From a virus (lineage: Duplodnaviria > Caudoviricetes): a DNA stretch of 64,000 bases. Every line of letters begins with the position of its first letter. The first letter of the stretch is position 1. Below, piece by piece: positions 7,598 to 30,330 of this stretch. Position numbers and translations under genes: made by a program. Under the pieces are notes generated by a model. It did no database searches, was not told where the DNA came from, and was given only the letters and a program-made list of their open reading frames with translations. The stretch lies in IMG/VR virus record IMGVR_UViG_3300021478_000028, positions 116-64,115 of that record, one strand, 5' to 3'.

Positions 7598-8191
7598 TTA
7601 TCGCGACCCCGCCAACAGAACTTCACCTACGTTACAGCCACCACACTCACAATGGGCGCGGCCAAGGCCAAACCCCACAGGGAGAGCCGCCCATGTGCCC
7701 CAATTGATTTTCTCGGTGATCTTCTCCGGCCTGCAATCGAAGAGGATGTCCTCTATAAAATAAATCCCCTCCGGCGCAAGATATTTTTCCAGAAAGTTGG
7801 CGGTGAAAATCTGATGGTCGGCAACATGCGAACCGTCGTCCACGATGATATCGAATTTCTGCTTCAATGGTTTCAGTGCTCGGTCGAGCATATCTCCGCT
7901 CGCCTGATCAGCAAAAAAGCATCTGATGCGCCCCTCGTTGATTAGGCATGCCGGATTGTTGTCCAGGCCGACGATATTCGCGGATGAGAAGTATTCCTCC
8001 CACATCCGCAGCGAGCAGCCATGGCCTACTCCGATTTCAAGAATATACTTGATCGCATATCGCTTGTCGCAGAATAGCTTATCGTAGACTTCCGTGTACC
8101 GATGACAGGTATCGCCCGCCTTCAGGTGATTGCCGCCTTTATCACTACCGTATTTGCGCGCGAGTCGGCAGAGTTCTGTTTCCCCGCTCAC
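7598..8191 (-). CDS. Class I SAM-dependent methyltransferase (sugar O-methyltransferase-like)
   Basis: ILEIGV..G.SL..W, DIIVDDGSH and YFIEDI motifs. Confidence 0.85.
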   Translation of the reverse strand: MSGETELCRLARKYGSDKGGNHLKAGDTCHRYTEVYDKLFCDKRYAIKYILEIGVGHGCSLRMWEEYFSSANIVGLDNNPACLINEGRIRCFFADQASGDMLDRALKPLKQKFDIIVDDGSHVADHQIFTANFLEKYLAPEGIYFIEDILFDCRPEKITEKINWGTWAALPVGFGLGRAHCECGGCNVGEVLLAGSR

Positions 8192-19305: not shown

Positions 19306-19517
19306 TCGCCAATACTAGGGAACTTGGCCTTCACCTTCGCCCTCACCTTGGCCGCGACCGGCTTTCCAGCAGAGCGCGCCAGCGCGTTCCGCGCATGAGA
19401 AGCATCCGGGATCGGATAGCTCCCGCTCCCCTTCCCCGACTTCCCCTCACCCTTTCCAGGCAACGCAAAATCACTGCTCGGCAACCGCTTCCTCGCAGCC
19501 ATCTTCAACTTCGCCAT
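19302..19517 (-). CDS. Small basic conserved phage protein
   Basis: RKRLPSSDFALP...YPIPDASHARNALAR. Confidence 0.8.
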   Translation of the reverse strand: MAKLKMAARKRLPSSDFALPGKGEGKSGKGSGSYPIPDASHARNALARSAGKPVAAKVRAKVKAKFPSIGE

Positions 19518-19640
19518 CTCTCATTCCCTTCATCCTAACCGTCACACCGTCACACCCCGAACAAATCAGGTACACAGCCGGCCATAGCCTTCTCCTAAAT
19601 CGCCCACCGCGACTGGTTTATTATTGGTTTATTTTGCTCC

Positions 19641-20012
19641 TCACCACGGCGTCCCGTCCGCCTGGTACAAATCCTCGGTACGACGCCCGGGATGGTAACA
19701 ATGCCGCTCCTGATATACCGTCCCATCCTCCCGCGTCGCCGTTCTCCACTCGGACCAATCCCCTTCCCGCACACTCTTCACAGGAATAGGCTTGTCCGCA
19801 CTCACCCCCAACCGCTCCAGCTCCGCCCGCATCTCCGCCTTGCTCCGCTCCGGAACCTCCGGTCGCTCCCGCGCCGCAAGATCGCGCGTATATGCCTCCG
19901 AAGCATACCGCTGCATCCGGTCCTTCTTCATCTGCTTGCGAACATGCTCCCTGTCCCATCTCATAACACCACGCCTCCAACTCCTAACTCGATCTCGCCA
20001 CTTGTTGCTCAT
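19641..20012 (-). CDS. Hypothetical protein
   Basis: GAGGAG upstream; purine-rich coding-like strand; start uncertain. Confidence 0.55.
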   Translation of the reverse strand: MSNKWRDRVRSWRRGVMRWDREHVRKQMKKDRMQRYASEAYTRDLAARERPEVPERSKAEMRAELERLGVSADKPIPVKSVREGDWSEWRTATREDGTVYQERHCYHPGRRTEDLYQADGTPW

Positions 20013-20211
20013 TCGAGACGCGCCCCCGGCGCTCCTCATGATGAGGATGAAAGCATCCACCCCCATGATATCATGTCAATAGCAGAATGCCCCATAATCC
20101 TTGACTTCCGTAAAAAAATCTGCGCTTAATTTTCCCGCCTGCTCCTCGCCTACGCGCGCGCGGCAGCAAACACCGCCAGCACAACAAATCAGGAACAGGC
20201 AACACTAAAGC

Positions 20212-20243
20212 AAAAAAGGGTGCACCTCACGTGCACCCTTTTT
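20212..20243. terminator. Bidirectional intrinsic terminator
   Basis: AAAAAAGGGTGCAC-CTCAC-GTGCACCCTTTTT. Confidence 0.75.
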
Positions 20244-20310
20244 CGTACCCCATCCGTCCATAATCGTTCCCCCCTCCTTCGAGGGGGCAAGCCTCTTCCC
20301 CCTCACCTGA

Positions 20311-20326
20311 TGTTCCACGTGAAACA
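20311..20326. promoter_or_regulatory. parS: Canonical chromosomal-type parS site
   Basis: TGTTCCACGTGAAACA is an exact match to TGTTNCACGTGAAACA and is intergenic. Confidence 0.8.
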
Positions 20327-20699
20327 TCCACCAACCGCATCGGTTGTACCATGCTCGCCCAGGTTGAAAGGGGAAAAAGGGGTCATACGTGCAATGAGGG
20401 TACGTATATAGCGCAGCAGGGGGTACCCCCTGGCCATGGTGGGGGGAGGGTGGCCCACCCCAGGGTGCCCTGCCCCTCCCCCGCGGCAGGGGTGGGGATG
20501 GAGCCGTGCTTGACTAGCACGTAGCGTGATGTAGAAAGATGAGTGGTAGCAATGGCTTGCGAGATTAGGAATGAACGGGGTAACGCTTGAGGGTAACAGC
20601 ACTGCCAAAGTATGAGCGTCGATGGCCAAGCGGTACCAGCCCCGCGAGCTTGGCCGGGGCACCAGTGGCCAACCACGAGCTTGACCACGAAATAGCGGG

Positions 20700-21050
20700 T
20701 TGCGACAAAACCCACCTTTCCTGCTTCCTGTGCGGGCTGCGATGGCGGCGTTACTGACCAAGATGCGAGAGTGTCGTTCGCGATCGGTTCCGCGATCGAA
20801 CAACCCGTTGGTGCTGGCGATTGCGAGGGTTTTGCCGGCGGACTTGGATGAGATCACGAGCGCGACGCTGGCTGATCTGATGGGGGTACGGGCGAGTGCT
20901 ATAGGGACGCGAGCGAAGCTTGCGAGGGCGATGTTAGAGTTGGGGTGGCTTCCATTTCGGCAGCGGCGGTCGAGCGGGCACTGGCGCGGGCAGGAGCTGC
21001 GTGGGTTTACGCGGATTGTGAGGAGCCCGAGGACGGGGGCGCGGTCCTGA
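20700..21050 (+). CDS. Putative winged-helix DNA-binding protein
   Basis: ITSATLADLMG...LARAMLELGW...RGFTR. Confidence 0.5.
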   Translation: MRQNPPFLLPVRAAMAALLTKMRECRSRSVPRSNNPLVLAIARVLPADLDEITSATLADLMGVRASAIGTRAKLARAMLELGWLPFRQRRSSGHWRGQELRGFTRIVRSPRTGARS

Positions 21051-21067
21051 AGCTATCAGGGCTAGTG

Positions 21068-21076
21068 TTATCCACA
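21068..21076 (+). promoter_or_regulatory. DnaA box
   Basis: TTATCCACA perfect match, intergenic. Confidence 0.5.
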
Positions 21077-21342
21077 GCCGTAGTGAGTGACATCACGGGA
21101 ACGTGATCTATTGTCACGCCCTTGTGAACAATAGTTGATGGTAAGCCTTGCAATGTCTGCGCTTTCCGCATACTGTGTGGCTTCGTTGTTAGCTTGCCCT
21201 CGTGAAGACGGGGGCTGTTGTTTGAAAATTCGGGCGCCCTGGACAGCCCCTCCACCCGGCCCCAGGCATTACCCGCAGCCCGATACATAGTCCCACCAAG
21301 TGGAGCGCTGGCGCGCCGAATGTGGAGGGGACGTAAAGAATA

Positions 21343-21415
21343 CGGAGAAACGAGCGAGGCGGCCGGAGCGGCCGTCTTTCCCGTCTCTTGACGGCCGACT
21401 GCATGGCGCGGTCGG
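21343..21415 (+). repeat. Structured leader copy 1
   Basis: Long stem with GAGCG/TTCCC internal loop, then CCGACTGC-ATGGC-GCGGTCGG. Confidence 0.85.
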
Positions 21416-21435
21416 AATAGAAGGAAAATGGACGA

Positions 21436-21633
21436 ATGACGAAGTTAGAGCAGCGAACGGCGCAAGGGTTGCGCGCATTTCGGAAGAACGAAGGCTTTAC
21501 CCTCACTTGGGAGCAATATGAGGCGCTGGTCGATCAGATGGCTCTCATGTGCTGCGATATGACGGGCATTGCCATTGATTATGCGGCGTTTTGCGACGCA
21601 TGTGGGCGAGGCGAGGCCTGCCCTCGGACTTGA
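21436..21633 (+). CDS. Small early protein
   Basis: 65 aa, follows leader 1. Confidence 0.6.
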   Translation: MTKLEQRTAQGLRAFRKNEGFTLTWEQYEALVDQMALMCCDMTGIAIDYAAFCDACGRGEACPRT

Positions 21634-21643
21634 TCCGCGGGAT

Positions 21644-21741
21644 TGAGGGACTAGCGCAAGGGCCGTGGCGAGCCCTTGTTCCCGTCTCTTGACGGCCTGC
21701 CCCCGTGGAGACGGGGGAGCGGCGGTCGCATGGCGCGATCG
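21644..21741 (+). repeat. Structured leader copy 2
   Basis: TAGCG/TTCCC internal-loop stem, CCCCCGT-GGAG-ACGGGGG, CGGTCGC-ATGGC-GCGATCG. Confidence 0.85.
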
Positions 21742-21764
21742 GAGCAATAGGAAAGGCAATCAAC

Positions 21765-21989
21765 ATGAGAATGAGCGGACCTCATAGTGAGGAGCGGCGA
21801 AGCCGCGTCTCGAACTACCGGATGACTACGCGAGTGTGGTCCGAGGTTATGAGCGAGCGCACCGCGGCCGCGATCGATGCGGCGCTGGCTCTAGAGTGGA
21901 ATGACCCCGTTTGGGACACGGTGCTCGAGGCGGCATGGCTTGAGCATGATCGAAGCGTCGTGCTGATGACGGGGGGCTTCGATGACTGA
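21765..21989 (+). CDS. Small early protein
   Basis: AGGAAAGG SD after leader 2. Confidence 0.5.
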   Translation: MRMSGPHSEERRSRVSNYRMTTRVWSEVMSERTAAAIDAALALEWNDPVWDTVLEAAWLEHDRSVVLMTGGFDD

Positions 21990-22167
21990 CATCGCAAGAG
22001 CCTATGCAATGGGGCGCAACGCGGCGCACCGTGGTGGGGTGATTAGTGAGCCTCGGTTCGATCGTGCGGGTAACGTCACCGAGGAAGCGCAATGGCTGGC
22101 CATCGCCTTTTGGAACGGCGTTCATGACCTCAAAGCGGAAGATCGGTTGAACCGGGAGGAATGGTGA
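21982..22167 (+). CDS. Small early protein
   Basis: 61 aa, overlaps the previous gene. Confidence 0.55.
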   Translation: MTDIARAYAMGRNAAHRGGVISEPRFDRAGNVTEEAQWLAIAFWNGVHDLKAEDRLNREEW

Positions 22168-22331
22168 TGACCGAGCAACAGCTTGATGCCTATCGGCTCA
22201 TGTACAAGGCGCTTGGGCGCGCCTTGGATGAGATCCACAATCCGGGATTTGGTCGCGTTTGTGGGCTGGACATTGTGAGCCACATTGAAGCGATCCGCAA
22301 AGAAGCGGCGCGTGTGGCACCGGAAGAATGG

Positions 22332-22417
22332 TGAGAGACAAGCGGAGCGGCCGTGGCGGGCCGTTCTTCCCGTCTCTCGACGAGTGGCAGACGGGGAGCG
22401 GCCGCATGGCGCGGTCG
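22332..22417 (+). repeat. Structured leader copy 3
   Basis: GAGAGAC/GTCTCTC stem with AAGCG/TTCCC loop, then CGGCCGC-ATGGC-GCGGTCG. Confidence 0.85.
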
Positions 22418-22686
22418 GAGCAAAGGAAAGGCAATCCAATGGAGCTTATCATCGCGGCCGGCCTCTTTGGCGCGGCCTTTGTGTTCTTCGTTGCAGCTGT
22501 GATGGACGCGTGGAAATGAGCCAGCAAACATTCCCCGGCATGGGGAAGCCCGACGTGGGCGGCATGCTGCAACGGCGCATGAACGCGCGCTTGCAACCTG
22601 GGGCAGCTCAAAAGGCGTGCGACGATGGCCTGTTCAGCGAAGCAGCGCGCGGCGTTGTGCAGGTCGATCTAAAGGAAAGGACAGAC

Positions 22687-22878
22687 ATGAAACCGCGCTA
22701 CCGTTTCAGCCTTGTTTGTCCGCAGTGCAAGCGGACAAGCGAGACGACATGCGAGTGGAGCGACTTGCACGCAAACGAAAGAGGTGAGCCGGTGCCAAGC
22801 GTGAATTGCGGCGACTGCCTGATGGAACGTGTTGAGGTTGTGGGGATGAAAGTAACCAGGGTGGAGGTGATGCCGTGA
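22687..22878 (+). CDS. Small zinc-ribbon protein
   Basis: AAGGAAAGG SD; CPQC and CGDC. Confidence 0.65.
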   Translation: MKPRYRFSLVCPQCKRTSETTCEWSDLHANERGEPVPSVNCGDCLMERVEVVGMKVTRVEVMP

Positions 22879-23156
22879 AAATGAACTTTCACAGCGATAA
22901 CGGCGCGGCTTGTTGGCGGTGCTCTGGCACAATCTACACCTACACCGTGGATGACACCGTAACCTACGTTGACGCACGCTGTGTCAGCTGCGGCGCGGAT
23001 AACATGTTTTACCCGCGATCGGCGGTTGACACACCGCAACATGTGTCATGGGCGCACCGCGACACCTACTCGACACAGCGCAGATGCGTGGGGAAGGCGT
23101 GAAAGAGTTCAACGCTGCGGCCACATCGATACAGACCCAACTCATGAAAGCGCATA

Positions 23157-23253
23157 GCTAGACCAGCCCATAGCGCTCTAAAGCGAGCGCTATGTTCGGG
23201 CCTAGCCCGCCTGCCCCCGTGGAGACGGGGGGCGGCCGCATGGCGCGGTCGTT
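23157..23253 (+). repeat. Structured leader copy 4
   Basis: GCTAG..CATAGCGCTC/GAGCGCTATG..CTAGC; GGAG hairpin; GGCGGCCGC-ATGGC-GCGGTCGTT. Confidence 0.85.
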
Positions 23254-23278
23254 CCACAATGAAGGAAAGCACAAACAC

Positions 23279-24847
23279 ATGACGACTAAATCACAAACGG
23301 TTGCAGCGGATGTTTACGCGCTGCTACGGGCGCGAGCACCGCTGACTTGGATAGTGACGCGCGAGGAAACCCGCGCGGAAATGTACATCGCGGAAGCCGC
23401 AATGGCCGCGAATTACGTCCCCATGACTTGGGACATCGCGGCCGGCGTGCGCGAGCTTGGCGGCAAGCCAGTCAACGGGTTCAGCCCTGATCCCGTAGAG
23501 ACTATGCGCGCAATCGGCGCGCGGGCAGAAGCCGGGACGGCAGGACGCGGACTGTTCTTCCTTCGCGACCTGCCATCGTGGCTTGAGGGTCAGGCGGGAG
23601 CGATGACGCTGCGGGCGCTGCGCAACCTCGCGCAGCAATTGCCGCGACCAACGGCCAGCCCGCAAGCCGTTGTCGTCATCTCGCCCAATGGCAATGTCCC
23701 CCCCGAGCTGTCATCGCTGGCAACAGTCATAGAGTGGCCGTTGCCCGATAGAGATGAAATCGCCGCACTGCTAGACGCGTCTCTTGAGGTTGCTGGCGAC
23801 AAGGTCGAAGCGTGCACCAATGGCACACGCGACCTCGCAATAGACGCGGCAATCGGGCTCACGGGCGACGAGGCACAATCGTGTTTCAATTGCAGCCTAG
23901 TCCAACATAAGAAGGTGGACGCGGTTGCAATCGCACAAGAGAAAAAGCGCACGATTGCTTCAGGTGGCTTGCTTGAGTGGTTCGATCCCCTTAAAGGCGG
24001 ATTGGACGCGGTCGGCGGGCTTGAGAACTTAAAATCGTGGCTTGTTGGCCGTGCCATTGCTTGGACACCGGGAGCACGCGCCTACGGCCTGCCAACTCCG
24101 AAAGGCGCGCTGCTAGTCGGCGTTCCCGGTTGTGGAAAGTCGCTCACGGCAAAGGCGATATCAACAGCATGGCAAGTGCCCTTGCTCCGTCTGGACTTGA
24201 ACTCGCTCAAAGGCAAGTTTGTCGGACAGAGTGAAGGCAATCTGCGCAAGGTCATAAGCATCATAAATGCACTTGGAAGGTGCGTGGTATGGCTTGACGA
24301 AATAGAGAAAGCGCTGGCCGGCGCAACGCAAGGCGCGGCCGACGGCGGTGTGAGCAGCGACGCGCTAGGAACAATCCTGTCATGGATGCAGGAGCGGAGC
24401 GGCGAAGCATTCGTCATTGCGACGGCGAATGATGTTTCAGCATTGCCGCCCGAGCTGTTGCGCAAAGGCAGATTTGACGAAGTGTGGTTTGTCGATTTGC
24501 CCACTGCAACCGAGCGCGCTGGCGTGCTCACGGCAGCACTGCGATCACACGGCCGCACGGCGGATGCTAATGAAGTTGCAAAGATTGTACCCGCAACGGA
24601 AGGCTTCACGGGCGCGGAGATTGCGGCAATCGTCCCCGACGCATTATTCGCAGCGTTCGCGGATGGTGCCCGCGAGGTAATCGCGGCCGACTTGCTGGCC
24701 GCAGCAGCAACCGTCGTGCCGCTGGCCAAGACCGCAGCGGAGAAAATCGCGGCGTTGCGAACATGGGCTGCGGGGCGAGCACGGCCGGCATCCAAGCCGG
24801 AAGCGACCGCATCAAAAGCCGCGGGCTTGCGAGCGATCGATATCTAG
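23279..24847 (+). CDS. Ycf46-like AAA+ ATPase
   Basis: Degenerate N-terminal AAA domain; VGGLENLK, GVPGCGKS, WLDEIEK, PPELLRKGRFDE. Confidence 0.92.
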   Translation: MTTKSQTVAADVYALLRARAPLTWIVTREETRAEMYIAEAAMAANYVPMTWDIAAGVRELGGKPVNGFSPDPVETMRAIGARAEAGTAGRGLFFLRDLPSWLEGQAGAMTLRALRNLAQQLPRPTASPQAVVVISPNGNVPPELSSLATVIEWPLPDRDEIAALLDASLEVAGDKVEACTNGTRDLAIDAAIGLTGDEAQSCFNCSLVQHKKVDAVAIAQEKKRTIASGGLLEWFDPLKGGLDAVGGLENLKSWLVGRAIAWTPGARAYGLPTPKGALLVGVPGCGKSLTAKAISTAWQVPLLRLDLNSLKGKFVGQSEGNLRKVISIINALGRCVVWLDEIEKALAGATQGAADGGVSSDALGTILSWMQERSGEAFVIATANDVSALPPELLRKGRFDEVWFVDLPTATERAGVLTAALRSHGRTADANEVAKIVPATEGFTGAEIAAIVPDALFAAFADGAREVIAADLLAAAATVVPLAKTAAEKIAALRTWAAGRARPASKPEATASKAAGLRAIDI

Positions 24848-24936
24848 GCAAGACGCAAGCCCCGTAGCGGGGGCTTGTTGCGTGCCTAGCACGGCGACCG
24901 CATGGCGCGGTCGACCTGCCCCCGCGTAGGCGGGGG
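24844..24936 (+). repeat. Structured leader copy 5
   Basis: CTAGGCA..TGCCTAG long stem; CGACCGC-ATGGC-GCGGTCG; CCCCCGC-GTAG-GCGGGGG. Confidence 0.85.
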
Positions 24937-24961
24937 TTCACCAAGAGAAAGGACTAAAGCT

Positions 24962-25744
24962 ATGCTTAATCCCACGACACTGCGGCCAGGATTGCTGGTC
25001 AACGTCAATACCAGCATTCGCGGCAATGTCCGCTATACAAAGCAGACAATCGAAGCCGAGCACATCGTTGAAACCGGTGCAGCAAAGGCGAGCTGGAATA
25101 CCGAAAAAACGGTGACAGATCCGGGCGAGCACAAGCGCGCCACGGAAGTGCGCGGCAAATGCCGATCGCTTATCAGCGCGTGTTGCGCGAACAGCGCGTT
25201 CGGCTTGCTTTGTCCCGACAACCGGGCGGACGACCTCGACAAGGCGACACGCGAGGCAGAAGCACTCGTGACCGCGTTCAACGCGACCGCCGAAGTGACG
25301 CGAGTGCAATTCTACATCATGGCCGGACGCGTTGCGGCCGACGACGTGGAAGCCGCACGCAAGATCAGTGGCGAATTGCGCGACTTGTTGGACGACATGC
25401 AACAAGGCGTGCAGAACCTCGACGCGGAAGCAATCCGCGAGGCAGCCAACAAGGCGCGCAGCGTGGGTCAGATACTGACACCCGAGGCGCAAGCCAAGCT
25501 GGCAGACGGTATCGCGGCGGCTCGCAGCGCGGCGCGCGTTATCGTCCGGGCGGGCGAGAGTGCCGCAGGCGAGATCGACCGCATGGCGCTTGAGCGCATT
25601 GCCAAGGCGAGAACGGCGTTCGATCTTGGCGACGAGGCGGAGGTTGCCGCCCCGGTTGCGGCCGGCCGATCGATCGACTTCGAAAGCGGGGACGGGCCTA
25701 GCTTTGCAGCCATGGTGCGGCCGCAGATGACGTTTGAACTATGA
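24962..25744 (+). CDS. Helical AAA-partner protein (DUF3150-like?)
   Basis: GAAAGGA SD, 260 aa; GRSIDF near the C-terminus echoes the ATPase end LRAIDI. Confidence 0.7.
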   Translation: MLNPTTLRPGLLVNVNTSIRGNVRYTKQTIEAEHIVETGAAKASWNTEKTVTDPGEHKRATEVRGKCRSLISACCANSAFGLLCPDNRADDLDKATREAEALVTAFNATAEVTRVQFYIMAGRVAADDVEAARKISGELRDLLDDMQQGVQNLDAEAIREAANKARSVGQILTPEAQAKLADGIAAARSAARVIVRAGESAAGEIDRMALERIAKARTAFDLGDEAEVAAPVAAGRSIDFESGDGPSFAAMVRPQMTFEL

Positions 25745-25895
25745 CTGACAAAGAATGGAAAGCGGCAATTGCGGAAATTGAAAGCTTACGCTTTCAATTG
25801 GTCAACAACATCATGCCGCTAACAGAACGTGAAGACTTGCGACGCAAGCTTACAGTTAGTTTATGCAGGCTTGCAAGGCGGGACATGCCTTAACC

Positions 25896-25968
25896 TAATG
25901 CAGCGGGGGACGCACCTATAGGGTGCGTCTCACGCCGCTGCACTAGCAGCAACCGGCCATGGCGGCCG
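25896..25968 (+). repeat. Structured leader copy 6
   Basis: TGCAGCGG-GG-GACGCACC..GGTGCGTC-TCACG-CCGCTGCA; CGGCC-ATGGC-GGCCG. Confidence 0.85.
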
Positions 25969-25993
25969 ACCAACAGAGAAAGGACCAAAGCAA

Positions 25994-26347
25994 ATGCCGT
26001 GCGACACGAGATTAAAACCAAAACAGACTATCAGCGAGCGCGCTGCTGAAATACGCAAAGCCGTTCTGAATATCGACCGCTTGTTGCTGCGGCGCGCGGT
26101 GCGCCCCGTAGTAGATCGCGTCACGGGCGCAATCGCGTTCGCTGGCATCCCCGAGGACGTGCGCGACGGGCTTACGGATGCCTGCATTTTCCGCCGCATA
26201 CTTGCGACAGGTAGCGCACTCGCTCGTGCAGAGATCACCCGCGCCGAACAGATGGCAGGGCGCGGCGTGAACAAGCAAGCGGTAGCGACCGGTGTGCACT
26301 CTCACGATGGCGGAAGGAGCTGGCACCAATGGCCACTGAAACAGTGA
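25994..26347 (+). CDS. Early protein (MPC-start, AAA cluster member)
   Basis: GAAAGGA SD, 117 aa. Confidence 0.7.
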   Translation: MPCDTRLKPKQTISERAAEIRKAVLNIDRLLLRRAVRPVVDRVTGAIAFAGIPEDVRDGLTDACIFRRILATGSALARAEITRAEQMAGRGVNKQAVATGVHSHDGGRSWHQWPLKQ

Positions 26348-26565
26348 GCTTCAGACGCATTACCAGCACCTATGGCGTAACCGTGGACGGACACGATTAC
26401 CGCGTCACCTGCGATAGGTGGGGCGGTACTCCATGGAACCCGGAAAAGTGTGAGAGATGGACAGTTATTGTCTCGAATAACGACCGCTGTTGCGATCCTG
26501 ACAAACCCACATTCAAGCGTGTGGTAACTGCCGTCAAAGCAGCGCTCCAGGAAAGGAACAACTAA
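26329..26565 (+). CDS. Small early protein
   Basis: AAGGAG SD, 78 aa. Confidence 0.6.
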   Translation: MATETVSFRRITSTYGVTVDGHDYRVTCDRWGGTPWNPEKCERWTVIVSNNDRCCDPDKPTFKRVVTAVKAALQERNN

Positions 26566-26801
26566 TGCGACAACGCGAATATACCCGCCTTGTGCGGCAT
26601 CTGGTCTCCGCAAGTGCAGAGCTTTTCCAAGACCATGATTTAGGCTTCCCGCAAACCCGTGACGAGTACATGCGCGCAATGTGGCAAGAAGACACGGAAA
26701 TGAAACACTGGAAAGCTACTCGCGAAGATTACACCGACGCACTGCGCGAGGCCTATGACATCGTCAAGGTCTACAGCATCATTAAAGAGAACCGCCGTTA
26801 A
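26565..26801 (+). CDS. Small early protein
   Basis: TAATG-coupled, 78 aa. Confidence 0.6.
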   Translation: MRQREYTRLVRHLVSASAELFQDHDLGFPQTRDEYMRAMWQEDTEMKHWKATREDYTDALREAYDIVKVYSIIKENRR

Positions 26802-26873
26802 TGCAGCGGGGGACGCTCCTATAGGGAGCGTCTCACGCCGCTGTATTAGCAGCGACCCGGCCATGGCAGCCGG
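26799..26873 (+). repeat. Structured leader copy 7
   Basis: Near copy of leader 6 with a compensatory A-T to T-A change; CCGGC-CATGGCA-GCCGG. Confidence 0.85.
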
Positions 26874-26895
26874 CTAACATGAAAGGAAAATCCAT

Positions 26896-27207
26896 ATGGC
26901 CAAGCCGTTCGCTCCCCCGCGTTACATCGCTCGCCTGTGCAACAACGCAGGCGAGCTGGACTTTGTATCGGCTGACAGCATTCGCACTCTCGCGCGCCAT
27001 CTTGGCAAGCGATTGATTGCGCAAGAATGGCTGCTAGCCGACGGCGACACAATCCACATTGAACGAAGAGAGCAACAAGAGCAACCGCAAGGCGTGTGCA
27101 TTGCCGTTGCAATGGGCGGTTCCCATTGCGTGGGGCGGTGCCAAGACCCGCGCGATTGTAGCGCACGACCGCGGACGTGTACCAAGCAGGAGCCCAACCA
27201 TGGCTGA
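26896..27207 (+). CDS. Small early protein, Cys-rich C-terminus
   Basis: GAAAGGA SD after leader 7. Confidence 0.6.
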   Translation: MAKPFAPPRYIARLCNNAGELDFVSADSIRTLARHLGKRLIAQEWLLADGDTIHIERREQQEQPQGVCIAVAMGGSHCVGRCQDPRDCSARPRTCTKQEPNHG

Positions 27208-27484
27208 CCATCCAATCTTGGAGTGCGAGGAGACCGCCAAGCACATCATCGCGCGCGGCGGAACGATCTATCAAAAGTGGAGTTGCGGGGGCTGCGGCTC
27301 CCGCATTACCGCCAACAAGCCCAACGTGTTCACAATCAAGGGGCATTGCGAGGATTGTGGGCATGTCACCGACTTGATCGCGGCGGGCTGCAATTACCTC
27401 GCTGTCATCCCGGTTGGCCGAGCCCCTGGCCAGGGAACGTGTGCCAATCCCCGGATCAAGTCCGAGGAGGAGCCCAGGCAATGA
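27200..27484 (+). CDS. Zinc-ribbon protein
   Basis: AGGAG SD; CGGCG and CEDCG. Confidence 0.65.
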   Translation: MADHPILECEETAKHIIARGGTIYQKWSCGGCGSRITANKPNVFTIKGHCEDCGHVTDLIAAGCNYLAVIPVGRAPGQGTCANPRIKSEEEPRQ

Positions 27485-27623
27485 GGACCATAAAAGCCAG
27501 GAGGAGAACCCTCACCATTAAGGGCCTGCGTCACCCGTCCGGGCCGGTGACGAGGCCAAACCCGGCGGGCAACCGCCGGGAGCGCCGCGCCGCAAAGGCG
27601 TGTGCCAAGCAGGAGCCCAAGCC

Positions 27624-27866
27624 ATGAGCCCGAAAGTATACCAACACCTGCAAGTAGACCTCGGGCTGACCCAGCGTGCGATGGCGCGCATGCTGGACGT
27701 GGCCGAGCGCACCGTGTTCGAGTGGAAAAAGGACGGCGTACAGGGCGGCCCAGCAGGGCTATTGCTCGCGTTGCTCGCCCGCGGCAAGATCACGCCGCAG
27801 GATTTGTGGGACTTGCGCCTGGAATACGAGCGATCGGTAGAAGCGCAGCCCGGACATCCACCGTGA
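27624..27866 (+). CDS. XRE-type HTH protein
   Basis: LGLTQRAMARMLDVAERTVFEW. Confidence 0.8.
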   Translation: MSPKVYQHLQVDLGLTQRAMARMLDVAERTVFEWKKDGVQGGPAGLLLALLARGKITPQDLWDLRLEYERSVEAQPGHPP

Positions 27867-27955
27867 GCATCTCTGGCCTGTTCTTTATCCTTTCCTTCAG
27901 GCTCAGGTGCCCGGCGGCTAGGGGGCGGGGGGCGCCATCCCCTCGCCCCCGCATT

Positions 27956-28285
27956 TCATGTCATAAGGATTGCCAGATAGGCGAGCCCGCGCGCTGTTAT
28001 GCGGCACAGATATCCACTCTTGCCGGATGGCGTCGGCGCGCGCGCGCCAGTACGCTCGATGAAGCCCGCCGTGCGCAGATCGGAGCAACGTTGACCATCG
28101 CAAGCATGTGGCGGAAAACCTGCCCGCCGGTATGCGTCAACATCAAGCAATGCAGAGCCGTCCCGGTAGGATCGCAATATCAGCTTCGCCTGTTTTGTTA
28201 TATCGATACTTTCTGCTGCTTCATGCGACGTGGCAGGATCGCTAGCGCGTGCGTGAGCATATGAGAACAGGTCCGGGTCAGTCAT
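27956..28285 (-). CDS. Winged-helix phage protein
   Basis: ARASDPATSHEAA; RCSDLR..GFI; ITARG. Confidence 0.75.
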   Translation of the reverse strand: MTDPDLFSYAHARASDPATSHEAAESIDITKQAKLILRSYRDGSALLDVDAYRRAGFPPHACDGQRCSDLRTAGFIERTGARAPTPSGKSGYLCRITARGLAYLAILMT

Positions 28286-28514
28286 TGTTGCTCAGCTCTC
28301 GTGATCTACGATCGTAATCTACGATGTCGTGATCCACGATGCGAACGCGCGTGTATTTGGCGATTGTTGAATGGCGCCCATCCGACATTGTTATTCGCAG
28401 CTTCTTGTTTTCCAGCCCCTCCTTGATCATCTCGGGATTGGCGTTGACTTGGCACACCTCAATCCAGCGCTCAGATCCGTATTGAACCGCCTCGATCGAA
28501 TAGCGCGCCATCAC
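28278..28514 (-). CDS. Hypothetical protein
   Basis: 78 aa, coupled. Confidence 0.55.
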   Translation of the reverse strand: MMARYSIEAVQYGSERWIEVCQVNANPEMIKEGLENKKLRITMSDGRHSTIAKYTRVRIVDHDIVDYDRRSRELSNND

Positions 28515-29029
28515 TAATGCTCCATCTTCGAACTGGGCATTTGCTCCTGTTCAACCAACGGCACCGGGAATGCTGCCTTCACTTCTTCCGGGTTGAAGGT
28601 CACCACCAATGAAGGAGGCGCACCTCTTTGTTTTAAAAATTTCCACAGAAATTTGGCAGTGCGACGAGATAAACGCGGACTCGGACTGACCACCTGAACG
28701 ATATACTCCGCATTGTCCCGAGAAAAAAATTCCGGCGGCACCGCCCACCACCGCGTCTGATCCCCCTCTACCTCCACGCGACAGTGAATGGTACCAGCAG
28801 CAAGAGCGCAGTAAGCCTCAAACATCGCGAATGGTAAAAGTCGCGCCAGGTCGTCCATCATCCTACCCGCATCTCGCATTTCCAACTGAGCTTGCCGTAG
28901 GCCCGCTGGAACACCGCGACCTGAATGCGCGCAGCCTCCCGGCACTGCTCCTGCGATTGGTACTGACCACTTTCGAAAGGCGGGATTGACCAACCCCAGA
29001 GGATCAGAAACCAGATGGCCATGGTTCAT
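28514..29029 (-). CDS. Hypothetical protein
   Basis: 171 aa, coupled at both ends. Confidence 0.55.
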   Translation of the reverse strand: MNHGHLVSDPLGLVNPAFRKWSVPIAGAVPGGCAHSGRGVPAGLRQAQLEMRDAGRMMDDLARLLPFAMFEAYCALAAGTIHCRVEVEGDQTRWWAVPPEFFSRDNAEYIVQVVSPSPRLSRRTAKFLWKFLKQRGAPPSLVVTFNPEEVKAAFPVPLVEQEQMPSSKMEH

Positions 29030-29253
29030 GCCTTATTAAACCGTGCTTCAACTTCGGCTCGCCCAATTGCGCGATAAAGTAATTCCTCTACGGCCCGCAT
29101 TTCTTCATCTGTCAGGTATTGTAAGGCGTGGCCGAAACTATTAGCCAATAGCTGCCGATGCTCACGGCGCTCTTGATCTTCACGCTTCTGTAACTTGGCA
29201 ATAAGGGCATCTGCTGCCTTGTCCTCGCTGCGTATTCGCTTGCTCATCACCAC
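29026..29253 (-). CDS. Hypothetical helical protein
   Basis: 75 aa, GAGGTG SD. Confidence 0.55.
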   Translation of the reverse strand: MVMSKRIRSEDKAADALIAKLQKREDQERREHRQLLANSFGHALQYLTDEEMRAVEELLYRAIGRAEVEARFNKA

Positions 29254-29254
29254 C

Positions 29255-29452
29255 TCACTGCTTTTTCCCGTACACGATCTCGCGCCCCTGCTCGAACGGC
29301 CCGATTGGCCGGCCGTATTTGGCCGTCATCTCCGCATACGACTGCCCCTCGGGCGGGTGCAACTCCCGCTTGAACCCCGGCCGCGCTCGCTTGAGCCACG
29401 GGTACTCGTCGGTGAATGTAGTCCTGCGTTGCCAGTATTCGCCGTCGCTCAT
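29255..29452 (-). CDS. Hypothetical protein
   Basis: 65 aa, GGAGG SD. Confidence 0.6.
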   Translation of the reverse strand: MSDGEYWQRRTTFTDEYPWLKRARPGFKRELHPPEGQSYAEMTAKYGRPIGPFEQGREIVYGKKQ

Positions 29453-29670
29453 TTCTTCCTCCGCATTTTCTCAGCAATGATCTCCGCCTCCGAGGGGCCG
29501 TTCATCTTGCGGTGCTCGCGCATGGCGCGATTGTAGAACGCATTGATGCTTTCACGCGGCCTGTGAATATCCCGGGCAACGCGCGAGGGCTCGACAATCA
29601 GCGTCTCCCCTCTGCGCTCCGCATAATACCACCACGCCGCCTCTTGCCAGTTGGGATCGTTCCAGCTCAT
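29449..29670 (-). CDS. Hypothetical protein
   Basis: 73 aa, AAGGAAG SD. Confidence 0.6.
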   Translation of the reverse strand: MSWNDPNWQEAAWWYYAERRGETLIVEPSRVARDIHRPRESINAFYNRAMREHRKMNGPSEAEIIAEKMRRKK

Positions 29671-29689
29671 TGGCTTCCTTCTTCGTCGC

Positions 29690-30330
29690 GTCCCCGGCTG
29701 ACCTAACGGTCAGCCTCTGAGCTTCACGGATAGAACCTTTCGTTTAATCGCTTAAGCCGCCGCCCACGGGCTGTTTAATTGCCCGGGGCGGCGGAGTCCT
29801 GGTGCTGCCTAGAGTATCCAACTGACTGCTGGAGCTTTCTGTTACTTACCTTTCTTCTATTGGCTATAGTGCTTGCTTAGGACACGACCCCCCAACCCCC
29901 CGCGGAAATGATCGGATTTAGCTGCCCGCCCTTTCCCGATTTTGTCGAGGGATTGGCGGATCATCCGGTTTCCACAAGGGACCGCGCAATGTGTGGTCGA
30001 GCCATTGGCCCAGTCAGCCCACGCGGTTTCGTTGGGGGATCGTCCGAGCCGGCACCTGGCAATCCAGGTGTCCTCATCCGAGGAGGCCCGCACGTGACCG
30101 GTCTATAACCGCATCCGGTCGGGGAAACCCCTACCCTACGGAGGCAATTACGCGCCCATTGACACTGCTGTAGGAAACCGCTTTGGATGCTGATGACCAG
30201 CGCGCCTACAGCTCGCGTTGGTCTCAGGGCTCACGTTCCGGCAAAAGATCGTGGGCCTTCTGGTGTCCCTGGTCCAGATCCCAGGTTGACGCCTCGCCCG
30301 GCGGGCTCCTCCAAGGCCCGACCGGGCTTC
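29690..30330. ncRNA. Candidate large structured RNA or replication origin
   Basis: No convincing ORF; about ten hairpins; C6-AA-C6 at 29888-29901; minus-strand TTGACT at 30359-30354. Confidence 0.5.

What the first reader, a model, noticed from the sequence alone, without database searches (positions are those of the whole stretch)
21343..26895. Seven covarying structured leaders with an invariant AUGGC hairpin loop in front of early genes
Seen: seven intergenic gaps share one layout: a long interrupted stem (starting at or near the upstream stop codon in copies 2-7), an optional C-rich/G-rich hairpin with a GGAG or GUAG loop, a short hairpin with loop ATGGC (21403, 21730, 22406, 23240, 24902, 25959, 26863), a purine-rich SD, then ATG. 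The short stems change sequence but keep pairing (CCGACTGC/GCGGTCGG, CGGTCGC/GCGATCG, CGACCGC/GCGGTCG, CGGCC/GGCCG), using G-T pairs that work on the + strand only, as expected for mRNA structure. Inference: a dispersed RNA element bound by a loop-reading protein (C-AUGGC-G is one base from the CsrA/RsmA ANGGA loop; boxB-like antitermination is another option) that coordinates early genes. I cannot assign it to a named RNA family.
Basis: partly seen in the sequence, partly recalled or inferred. Interest (0 to 1): 0.85.

Follow-up and report, generated by a model that had tools for sequence, protein, structure and literature searches.

The report
Repeated hairpin leaders between phage genes
A soil phage puts the same small RNA hairpin, always with the loop AUGGC, just ahead of the ribosome site of seven gene units, at the same gene junctions where related phages carry self-cutting hammerhead RNAs, so it is probably a new version of the known habit of dividing a long phage message into separate gene units.

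Summary
Exactly seven hairpins with an invariant C-ATGGC core and covarying stems lie on the + strand at 21395-26873. Each is intergenic and lies 20-27 nt (one 48 nt) before a start codon with a shared purine-rich ribosome site. A covariance model separates them cleanly from everything else in this 64-kb phage genome. There is no Rfam match, and no second genome with the element turned up in IMG/VR, metagenome or genome collections.

New here: the AAA-ATPase/g11/g13 gene trio is syntenic in all 9 related IMG/VR loci compared. Five of 75 loci scanned carry type II hammerhead motifs, four of them in arrays that include these junctions. Other loci carry their own lineage-specific hairpin or promoter cassettes there.

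I read the element as a sense-strand mRNA punctuation cassette for processing, end protection and standardised translation start. Its loop would be read by an unidentified factor. No RNA data exist, so the mechanism is inferred. The CsrA, boxB, sigma-54, sigma-70/PeSL and N4-hairpin-promoter readings each fail a defining feature.

Verdict: a new variant of a known kind, of moderate interest.

The parts
21343..21435 (+). Cassette 1, the leader before the first gene of the block (ATG 21436). Upstream hairpin A at 21356-21378. ATGGC hairpin at 21395-21415 (8 bp). 20 nt from the stem to the ATG.
   Evidence: (28.2 bits)
21634..21764 (+). Cassette 2. Hairpin A at 21656-21679. C5/G5 hairpin with GGAG loop at 21700-21717. 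ATGGC hairpin at 21723-21741 (7 bp). 23 nt to the ATG at 21765.
   Evidence: (27.8 bits)
22335..22438 (+). Cassette 3. Hairpin A at 22344-22367. ATGGC hairpin at 22399-22417 (7 bp). 21 nt to the ATG at 22439, which starts a 26-aa hydrophobic ORF.
   Evidence: (29.0 bits); the minimum-energy fold of this copy uses another pairing
23162..23278 (+). Cassette 4, before the AAA ATPase. Long stem at 23157-23206, which includes the upstream stop. C5/G5 hairpin at 23214-23231. ATGGC hairpin at 23233-23251 (7 bp, extendable to 11). 27 nt to the ATG at 23279.
   Evidence: (30.6 bits)
24848..24961 (+). Cassette 5, before g11. Long stem at 24844-24889. ATGGC hairpin at 24895-24913 (7 bp). Here the C5/G5 hairpin with GUAG loop (24919-24936) comes after it. 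48 nt to the ATG at 24962.
   Evidence: (28.3 bits)
25894..25993 (+). Cassette 6, before g13. Long interrupted stem at 25899-25942 (19 pairs with a 3-nt bulge). ATGGC hairpin at 25954-25968 (5 bp). 25 nt to the ATG at 25994.
   Evidence: (25.1 bits)
26802..26895 (+). Cassette 7. Long stem at 26802-26845; against cassette 6 it has one compensatory A-U to U-A change and one G-C to G-U change. Hairpin at 26857-26873 (5 bp, 7-nt loop CATGGCA). 22 nt to the ATG at 26896.
   Evidence: (24.0 bits)
27671..27696 (+). Possible extra member: a 10-bp hairpin with hexaloop ATGGCG, inside the coding sequence of the last gene of the block (27624-27866, an Xre-like HTH protein).
   Evidence: not among the matches of model R1 at E up to 10
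27921..27950 (.). An 11-12 bp G/C hairpin between convergent genes at the end of the block. Its + sense loop (G)CGCCAT(C) is the complement of AUGGCG(C); its - sense loop reads ATGGCG.
   Evidence: the - strand scores 12.0 bits with R1; it may be chance
27176..27620 (+). A second repeated leader type: 22-nt direct repeats (27176-27197 and 27599-27620, core CCAAGCAGGAGCCCAA) just before two start codons. One soil-metagenome contig joins 27197 to about 27621, which is a deletion of the gene unit between the repeats.
   Evidence: X1 loose end at 27197; D12

Best explanation
The seven elements are modular intercistronic leader cassettes that act in the sense-strand mRNA of one long + strand gene block (about 21.1-27.9 kb) of an uncultured 64-kb soil podovirus-like phage.

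Each cassette has three or four parts:
- a variable, very stable upstream stem, which often swallows the stop codon of the gene before it;
- in some copies, a C5/G5 hairpin;
- the short hairpin with the invariant loop AUGGC;
- a shared extended ribosome site (CAAnAGrAAAGGA, then 7-10 nt, then AUG).

I propose that the long message is cut or functionally insulated at each cassette. The upstream stem would become a protective 3' end. The AUGGC hairpin would become the 5'-proximal structure of the next gene unit, about 20-27 nt before its start codon. The invariant loop would be read by one trans-acting factor, most likely a host or phage endoribonuclease or RNA-binding protein, so that seven units are handled alike. 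This is the same job that arrays of type II hammerhead ribozymes do, by self-cleavage, at the same gene junctions in related phages.

Shown: the family, its covariation, its orientation and spacing, its absence from Rfam, and the hammerheads at equivalent junctions in relatives.

Inferred: that it acts as RNA, that cutting occurs, where it occurs, and that a protein reads the loop.
For: 1. Seven and only seven copies exist. All are on the sense strand and all are intergenic. They fill the leader of the block and 6 of its 7 internal gaps longer than 90 nt (gene map).
2. The loop and closing C are invariant while the stems vary with 6 of 8 pairs changed on both sides. The upstream stems also keep pairing through double changes: 3 pairs in copies 1-3 and 1 pair plus a G-C to G-U change in copies 6/7.
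3. The distance from stem to ATG is 20-27 nt in 6 of 7 copies, and the purine-rich ribosome-site block is shared (D4/D18).
4. Whole cassettes fold better as + sense RNA in 6 of 7 cases. Fold z-scores run from -1.0 to -5.1.
5. None of the 7 cassettes has a sigma-70-like promoter hit. Only one + strand terminator-like site lies in the region, at 21196, outside the cassettes.
6. The trio ATPase-g11-g13 is syntenic in all 9 related IMG/VR loci tested; the tenth target, Rhizobium phage L120, gave no hit. In L132, L142 and L150 the junctions before these genes hold type II hammerhead motifs. L127 has one before its ATPase. L158 has eight motifs in the same stretch, with further small genes between. 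Support: regex (L132 6, L158 8, L150 3, L142 3, L127 1); RF02276 (best 40.1 bits, above the 37-bit cut-off; E down to 3.6e-8). Our genome has none (best E 1.9).
7. Perreault et al. 2011 (PMC3088659, passages read) state that clustered hammerheads flank single genes or short gene blocks in prophages. They say this implies processing of long phage transcripts.
8. Other relatives carry their own repeated cassettes at these junctions: L152 and L124 have a GAUGC-loop-GCAUC hairpin about 15 nt before the ribosome site, and L151 has sigma-70-like promoters. The junction is therefore a conserved slot for an expression-punctuation module.
Against: There are no RNA data at all. The only runs that hold the stretch are soil DNA metagenomes, so no ends, cuts or transcripts are shown.

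No second genome carries the element, so all covariation is among paralogues in one genome, and most double changes separate two subfamilies (copies 1-5 against 6-7).

The short hairpin pairs almost as well on the - strand (83.9% against 85.7%). A DNA-level hairpin is therefore not excluded by the hairpin itself.

No nuclease or RNA-binding protein was recognised among the 20 small proteins of the block and its neighbours scanned against Pfam.

One relative (L151) fills the same slot with promoters, so the analogy with relatives does not by itself favour RNA processing over transcription.

The C5/G5 hairpin changes sides of the ATGGC hairpin in copy 5, so the parts look like independent hairpins rather than one folded unit.
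Confidence: 0.5

Rival explanations
1. Translational operator regulon. The hairpin is the binding site of a repressor or activator, like a coat-protein operator or RegA-type control. The factor sits at the 5' edge of the ribosome footprint and tunes translation of seven gene units together, with no cutting of the RNA.
For: The position is fixed 20-27 nt before the ATG in 6 of 7 copies, next to a shared ribosome site. The loop is invariant and the stems covary.
Against: No candidate binding protein was recognised. This reading does not explain the large stable stems at the upstream stop codons. It also does not explain why relatives place ribozymes in the same slots. In copy 5 a 20-nt hairpin is tolerated between the site and the ribosome site.
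Confidence: 0.15
2. Transcription-level element. Each cassette would be a terminator-plus-promoter unit like the PeSLs of T4-type phages, or a nut-like antitermination site, or a hairpin promoter for an unusual polymerase.
For: The layout (stem-loop, conserved block, ribosome site, start codon) is that of PeSLs (PMC4122927, passages read). One relative, L151, has sigma-70-like -35/-10 boxes in the same slots. Copies 1-3 share CGTCTCTTGAC, which faintly recalls boxA (recalled, not tested). The hairpin pairs on either strand.
Against: None of the 7 cassettes has a sigma-70-like hit. By my reading, the sigma-54 -12 GC is in register in copies 2-3 only. No T7-like polymerase gene was found (the controls did not ring), and no ORF is longer than 1542 aa, so there is no N4-type virion polymerase. 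On the template strand, 4 of 7 hairpins carry an internal A.C mismatch. The upstream stems lack U-tracts. Covarying stems are not a feature of duplex-DNA promoters.
Confidence: 0.12
3. Recombination scaffold or young duplicates. The cassettes would be copies of one leader spread by recombination. They would serve mainly as homology for shuffling gene units, and the loop would be conserved by gene conversion or recency, not by a reader.
For: The cassettes are mosaics. Copy 5 has the hairpin of copies 1-4 but the ribosome-site block of copy 6 (D1, D18). The C5/G5 module moves between positions (D3). A second repeated leader flanks a gene unit that is deleted in one soil-metagenome contig (D12). 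PeSLs are argued to work this way (PMC4122927).
Against: Neutral copies would not keep six adjacent columns invariant while 15 of the other 21 columns vary with pairing preserved. Recombination use and an expression function are not exclusive.
Confidence: 0.08
4. A new small self-cleaving RNA, or the substrate half of one, that replaces the hammerhead.
For: It occupies the slots where relatives have hammerheads. It has a two-hairpin layout with a short single-stranded linker (YTAGC...) between them in copies 4-7. Searching near genes known to be associated with ribozymes is, as I recall, how pistol, hatchet and twister-sister were found.
Against: No ribozyme family matches at E up to 5. Very few nucleotides are conserved outside the loop and the ribosome site. 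The modules change order in copy 5. The upstream stems belong to at least three unrelated sequence families.
Confidence: 0.06

Closest known systems
Clustered type II hammerhead ribozymes flanking genes in phage and prophage operons (Perreault et al. 2011, PMC3088659; passages read)
   Same: One structured RNA module sits per gene junction in a co-directional phage gene array, directly before the ribosome site. It occupies the same junctions of the same syntenic ATPase-g11-g13 trio in related loci. The layout has two adjacent hairpins.
   Different: There is no CUGANGA/GAAA/UH core and no RF02276 match. Any cutting would need a trans-acting enzyme, or the element may not cut at all.
PeSL/PmSL composite promoter-terminator cassettes of T4-type phages (Comeau et al. 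2014, PMC4122927, passages read; Arbiol et al. 2010, PMC2839356, search listing only)
   Same: Both are repeated intergenic cassettes made of a stem-loop, a conserved block, a Shine-Dalgarno sequence and a start codon in regions of small accessory genes. Both have mosaic modules. A deletion between repeated leaders was seen in a metagenome contig.
   Different: PeSLs are defined by sigma-70-like -35/-10 boxes, and none is found here. In PeSLs the stem sequence pattern is conserved; here the loop is invariant and the stems covary.
RNase III processing sites between the early genes of phage T7 (recalled from general knowledge, no paper read)
   Same: Long interrupted stems of about 19-25 pairs lie directly after stop codons in a polycistronic podovirus message.
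   Different: T7 sites have no second small hairpin with a fixed loop. Cleavage here is untested.
17-bp inverted repeats of Cluster O mycobacteriophages and start-associated sequences of Cluster K (Cresawn et al. 2015, PMC4351075, passages read)
   Same: Both are many-copy short dyad repeats of unknown function in phages. Cluster O phages also carry homologues of this ATPase and g11.
   Different: In Cluster O the arms are invariant and the centre varies. About a third of copies lie in coding regions, and orientation does not follow transcription. Here the pattern is the opposite on all three counts.
Hairpin-specific readers: lambda N-boxB, CsrA/RsmA sites, Csy4-type hairpin endoribonucleases (all recalled)
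   Same: A short stem presents a fixed pentaloop to a protein.
   Different: The loop sequence fits neither boxB nor CsrA. No such protein gene was recognised in the phage.

Membership tests
Hammerhead ribozyme type II (RF02276) | Catalytic core CUGANGA ... GAAA ... UH between three stems | tested here: not met
   The regex for the core finds 0 in the window on either strand. RF02276 on the whole genome gives best E 1.9 at 10 bits. The same tests are positive in related loci.
Any Rfam 15 family | Covariance-model match at the gathering score, or a near miss | tested here: not met
   0 matches at the gathering score in the window. At E up to 5 on 20800-28000 there are only four hits, at 15-21 bits, to unrelated families.
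CsrA/RsmA binding site | GGA in the hairpin loop (A(N)GGA) | tested here: not met
   The loop is AUGGC in all 7 copies. The motif definition is recalled.
CsrA/RsmA binding site | A CsrA protein available | tested here: inconclusive
   There is no CsrA in the phage in six frames. The host is unknown.
Lambda-type nut site (boxA + boxB with N) | boxB is a purine-rich GNRA-like pentaloop; one or two sites per operon near the promoter | tested here: not met
   The loop AUGGC is not purine-rich. There are seven sites, each locked 20-48 nt before a start codon. The boxB definition is recalled. No N-like protein was recognised.
PeSL (promoter-early stem-loop) cassette | Sigma-70-like -35 and -10 boxes between the stem-loop and the Shine-Dalgarno sequence | tested here: not met
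   0 of 7 cassettes have a promoter-like hit. The + strand hits in the stretch scanned (19500-30000) are at 20047, 21087 and 26755.
PeSL (promoter-early stem-loop) cassette | Repeated stem-loop + SD + start cassettes linked to gene gain and loss | tested here: inconclusive
   The modules are mosaic. One deletion lies between a different pair of repeated leaders. There is no closely related genome to compare.
Sigma-54 promoter | GG at -24 and GC at -12, ten bases apart (TGGCAC-N5-TTGC) | tested here: not met
   Reading, TGGC is present in all copies, but a GC in the -12 register occurs only in copies 2 and 3. The consensus is recalled.
N4-type hairpin promoter | Template-strand hairpin with a 3-nt loop, and a giant virion RNA polymerase | tested here: not met
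   The loop is 5 nt. On the template strand 4 of 7 copies have an internal A.C mismatch. The longest ORF is 1542 aa and carries only an LPD38 domain. The definition is recalled.
RNase III processing site | About two turns of double-stranded RNA, often with an internal loop | tested here: met
   In copies 4-7 the stems are 19 or more pairs with bulges. In copies 1-3 they are only about 10 pairs.
RNase III processing site | Cleavage by RNase III | not testable with these tools
   No RNA run holds the stretch.
Intrinsic terminator | G+C-rich hairpin followed by a U-tract | tested here: not met
   None of the cassette stems is called. The only + strand call nearby is 21196-21215, upstream of cassette 1.

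The most novel reading that the evidence does not exclude
The cassette belongs to an undescribed RNA-processing or control system that stands in for hammerheads. One version is a new small self-cleaving motif. The other is a one-to-many loop-loop system, in which the G/C hairpin at 27921-27950 pairs with the AUGGC loops of all seven leaders and so links their fate to one RNA. In + sense that hairpin's loop is the 5- to 7-nt complement of the leader loops.
Probability: 0.12. Interest if true: 0.85.

Novelty: new variant of a known kind. Interest (0 to 1): 0.55.

Why it matters
Phage early operons are often split into gene-sized units. The known means are host RNase III (T7), repeated promoters (the PeSLs of T4-type phages) and self-cleaving hammerheads. 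This element fills the same slot, at junctions shared with hammerhead-bearing relatives, but it has neither a catalytic core nor a promoter.

If it works as proposed, it points to an unidentified factor that reads a hairpin loop. It would also show that unrelated RNA devices are swapped in and out of one conserved genomic slot.

It gives a small, well-defined target of 21 nt in seven natural variants for a cleavage or binding assay. It is also a candidate of the kind that has led to new ribozyme classes before.

Tried and rejected
Searches for the same element elsewhere all failed.
- A 14-nt core in IMG/VR gave 119 stretches with single matches, which I take as chance in G+C-rich DNA.
- Core plus ribosome site gave 0 in IMG/VR.
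- The same pattern in metagenome contigs gave 118 single-match loci. None has an array, 10 have a hairpin with 6 or more pairs, and the best look-alike (L203/L282/L302) lies inside a 581-aa ORF.
- The whole 19-nt hairpin in one genome per species gave 120 single-match loci scattered over many phyla. There is no multi-copy genome, so it is not a host REP-like repeat. One hit (L511) lies before a transposase gene.

Relatives found through proteins also lack it.
- g11 gave no IMG/VR locus.
- g14 gave one weak locus.
- The ATPase gave 74 loci, none with an ATGGC array.
- The portal gave 80 loci. Model R1 was run on 24 of their records, and 10 gave isolated weak hits. The 8 I read are in coding-like sequence, except one AUGGU hairpin before a gene. 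Only 1 of these 24 records has a hammerhead hit.

RNA evidence: no RNA holder is listed for the stretch. The four soil DNA runs that I laid show the same letters, so they give no natural variants with which to test covariation.

Other rejected readings:
- The loop ATG as a start codon. It is in frame and open to the gene in only 3 of 7 copies, has no ribosome site before it, and lies in a G+C stem.
- tRNA-like: ARAGORN finds nothing.
- An RNase P-type hairpin with an ACCA tail fits copy 6 only.
- HDV-like: the resemblance of CCGGCAUGG is superficial, and the topology is a plain hairpin.
- A pseudoknot between the loop and a nearby GCCAU: no consistent partner lies within the cassettes (reading).

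The first MAFFT alignment misaligned copies 6 and 7. I replaced it with fixed 21-nt windows.

Supplementary files of the papers were not opened. Figures S1-S3 of PMC3088659 on rhizobial prophage hammerhead clusters may bear on the comparison.

Literature: a search for 'AUGGC' + 'loop' + 'phage' found 0 papers. A search on Rhizobium phages and intergenic repeats found nothing relevant in the listing.

Full report
WHAT THE WINDOW IS. The window is almost all of a single 64,115-base viral record. IMG/VR classes it as linear and CheckV rates it 100% complete. It has a T7-type portal/adaptor, an internal virion protein, tail fibres, Erf- and RecE-like recombination genes and an AAA ATPase. The nearest named relatives are Rhizobium phages RHph_TM27A/B, TM29 and TM3_14A, with 55% portal identity at the same map position. 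Near-identical DNA is held by soil metagenome runs only. The host is unknown. The finding lies in a + strand block of small genes from about 21.4 to 27.9 kb. The block follows a 480-nt non-coding region and ends against convergent - strand genes. That these genes are 'early' is an inference from layout.

- Of 110 ATGGC words on the + strand, six are closed by 5 or more pairs. The seventh has a C.A closing mismatch and a 7-nt loop.
- A 21-position covariance model built from the seven copies scores them at 24.0-30.6 bits. Nothing else in the genome, on either strand, exceeds 16.3 bits.
- The repeat finder recovers the same families on its own.
- In 4.04 Mb of other fetched DNA the density of such hairpins is 0.27 per 10 kb per strand. 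Six or seven in 5.5 kb is therefore about forty times the background.
- Only the six columns C-ATGGC are invariant.
- The stems keep 85.7% of cells paired against 58.6% in shuffles, and 6 of 8 pairs change on both sides.

The elements stand in the leader of the block and in six of its seven internal gaps longer than 90 nt. The stem ends 20, 23, 21, 27, 48, 25 and 22 nt before the start codon. The 48 is copy 5, where a C5/G5 hairpin is inserted. A shared purine-rich ribosome site follows each hairpin. The start codons of the ATPase, g11 and g13 agree with their homologues.

First, the G-T argument for strand is weak for the short hairpin. The reverse complement is 83.9% paired. Four copies gain an internal A.C mismatch on the - strand, but copy 7 loses one. 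Better evidence for the sense strand is the constant orientation, the constant spacing, and the folding of whole cassettes. Those fold more stably in + sense in 6 of 7 cases, summing to -352.8 against -318.2 kcal/mol. Second, the upstream stems are not one family but at least three: copies 1-3, copies 4 and 5, and copies 6-7. They do keep pairing through double changes, in 3 pairs for copies 1-3 and 1 pair for copies 6-7. They are not called as terminators, because they lack U-tracts.

THE CASSETTES ARE MOSAICS. Copy 5 has the hairpin of copies 1-4 and the ribosome-site block of copy 6. The C5/G5 hairpin occurs in copies 2, 4 and 5, and as a terminator-like hairpin at 21196. In copy 5 it lies on the other side of the ATGGC hairpin. 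This speaks for independent hairpin modules rather than one compact fold.

WHAT RELATIVES DO AT THE SAME PLACES. The ATPase has 74 related loci in IMG/VR. None has an array of ATGGC hairpins, but several have repeated leader cassettes of their own. In all nine of those loci that I compared, ATPase, g11 and g13 homologues lie in the same order as here.

Five of the 75 loci scanned (L120-L194) carry type II hammerhead motifs, all in the sense of the genes. The counts are L132 six, L158 eight, L150 three, L142 three and L127 one (core pattern). One L142 hit, at 7972, lies inside the g11 homologue and is probably false. The Rfam model confirms hammerheads in four of the five contigs, with 4, 5, 2 and 2 hits at E up to 1. 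The best scores 40.1 bits against a cut-off of 37; L127's contig has none.

In L132 these hammerheads lie directly before the ATPase, before g11, before g13 and after g13. These are the places of our copies 4, 5 and 6. L142 has them before the ATPase and g13, and L150 before g11 and g13. L127 has one before its ATPase, and L158 has eight in the same stretch.

Our genome has no hammerhead. Two further loci, L152 and L124, fill the slots with a different short hairpin about 15 nt before the ribosome site. That hairpin has conserved arms GAUGC/GCAUC and no Rfam match. L151 fills the slots with sigma-70-like promoters.

Perreault et al. 2011 described clustered hammerheads flanking single genes in prophages, including rhizobial ones. 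They concluded that long phage transcripts may be processed into gene-length mRNAs (PMC3088659, passages). After I had found these hammerheads, earlier notes of this scan showed many such arrays in other phages. In one case uncatalogued small structures share the gaps with hammerheads (unchecked by me).

READING. The junctions of this gene module are a conserved slot for a device that punctuates expression, and lineages differ in the device. Here the device has no catalytic core and no promoter. I therefore read it as an mRNA element with four roles. The stable upstream stem closes the preceding unit. The AUGGC hairpin opens the next one at a fixed distance from a standard ribosome site. The invariant loop is the handle for one trans-acting factor, either a nuclease or a binding protein. 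The short single-stranded linker between the two hairpins (YTAGC... in copies 4-7) is the likeliest cut site. Only the anatomy and the comparison are shown. Cutting, its place and the factor are inferred. No candidate protein was recognised among the 20 small proteins scanned, and the phage has no CsrA.

RIVALS. I weigh four:
- A pure translational operator fits the spacing, but not the stop-codon stems or the ribozyme analogy.
- A transcription-level element fits the PeSL layout (PMC4122927) and the L151 case. It lacks any -35/-10, -24/-12 or polymerase gene here.
- A mere recombination scaffold fits the mosaicism and a deletion between a second pair of repeated leaders seen in one soil contig. 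It does not explain an invariant loop amid covarying stems.
- A new self-cleaving RNA is suggested by the slot, but is made unlikely by the few conserved bases and the movable modules.

LOOSE ENDS. Two more long hairpins at the far end of the block carry the motif or its complement.
- A 10-bp hairpin with loop ATGGCG lies inside the last gene (27671-27696).
- An 11-12 bp G/C hairpin between the convergent genes (27921-27950) has a + sense loop that is the complement of AUGGCG(C).

Of 30 + strand hairpins with 10 or more pairs in the window, three carry the word or its complement in the loop, and one of those is copy 4. This could be chance; my rough estimate is a few percent. It could instead be a loop-loop partner for all seven leaders.

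NOVELTY AND SCORE. Repeated structured cassettes between phage accessory genes are a known kind. This one, with a plain hairpin, a fixed pentaloop and covarying stems, is in no Rfam family. It was found in no paper by my two searches and in no other genome by six sequence searches. The two paper searches cover only the open-access library. I rate it a new variant of a known kind. Interest is 0.55, because the family is small, confined to one uncultured genome, and has no RNA data.

Noticed in passing
L132 5105-8880; L158 1079-8130; L150 1349-3310; L142 5900-8520; L127 286-340: Type II hammerhead ribozyme motifs lie between the genes around the homologous AAA-ATPase module in five uncultured phage contigs: 6, 8, 3, 3 and 1 core-pattern hits. 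The Rfam model confirms four of the five contigs. In L132 the stem I loop UGGC can pair with GCCA just after the core, which is the pseudoknot described for type II hammerheads.
   Followed up: partly
L152 5964, 8487, 9217; L124 4310, 6824, 7435: A different uncatalogued leader cassette. It runs CAGCGACC, a variable hairpin, GUGC, a short hairpin with conserved arms GAUGC/GCAUC, then AACGAAGGGA and the ATG. It sits at the same junctions of the ATPase-g11-g13 module and has no Rfam match.
   Followed up: partly
L120 (Rhizobium phage RHph_TM27A) 17918-31215: More than ten copies of the palindrome GTTACC-N4-6-GGTAAC, with conserved arms and a variable centre, lie in the + strand gene block of the nearest named relative. 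Some are between genes and some inside them. This resembles the Cluster O mycobacteriophage 17-bp repeats.
   Followed up: no
window 27176-27620: 22-nt direct repeats sit just before two start codons. One contig of soil run X1 joins 27197 to about 27621, so a variant lacking the gene unit between the repeats coexists with the full form.
   Followed up: partly
window 23243: One contig of soil run X3 follows the window up to 23243, inside the loop of copy 4, and then continues with unrelated sequence. This may be a recombination joint at a cassette or an assembly artefact.
   Followed up: no
window 27671-27696 and 27921-27950: Two strong hairpins stand at the end of the block. One, inside a gene, has loop ATGGCG. 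The other, between convergent genes, has a loop complementary to the leader loops.
   Followed up: partly
window 21080-21225: Nested palindromes (GTGACA..TGTCAC around ATCACG..CGTGAT) and a sigma-70-like hit at 21087-21114 are followed by a terminator-like hairpin with a T-run at 21196-21225. This is a likely promoter/operator region, with a short leader transcript, for the whole block.
   Followed up: no
window 23279-26347: The AAA ATPase, g11 (260 aa) and g13 (117 aa) form a trio that is syntenic in all nine related IMG/VR loci checked. The ATPase and g11 are also present in Cluster O mycobacteriophages such as Corndog, so the module crosses very distant phage groups. Its function is unknown.
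   Followed up: partly
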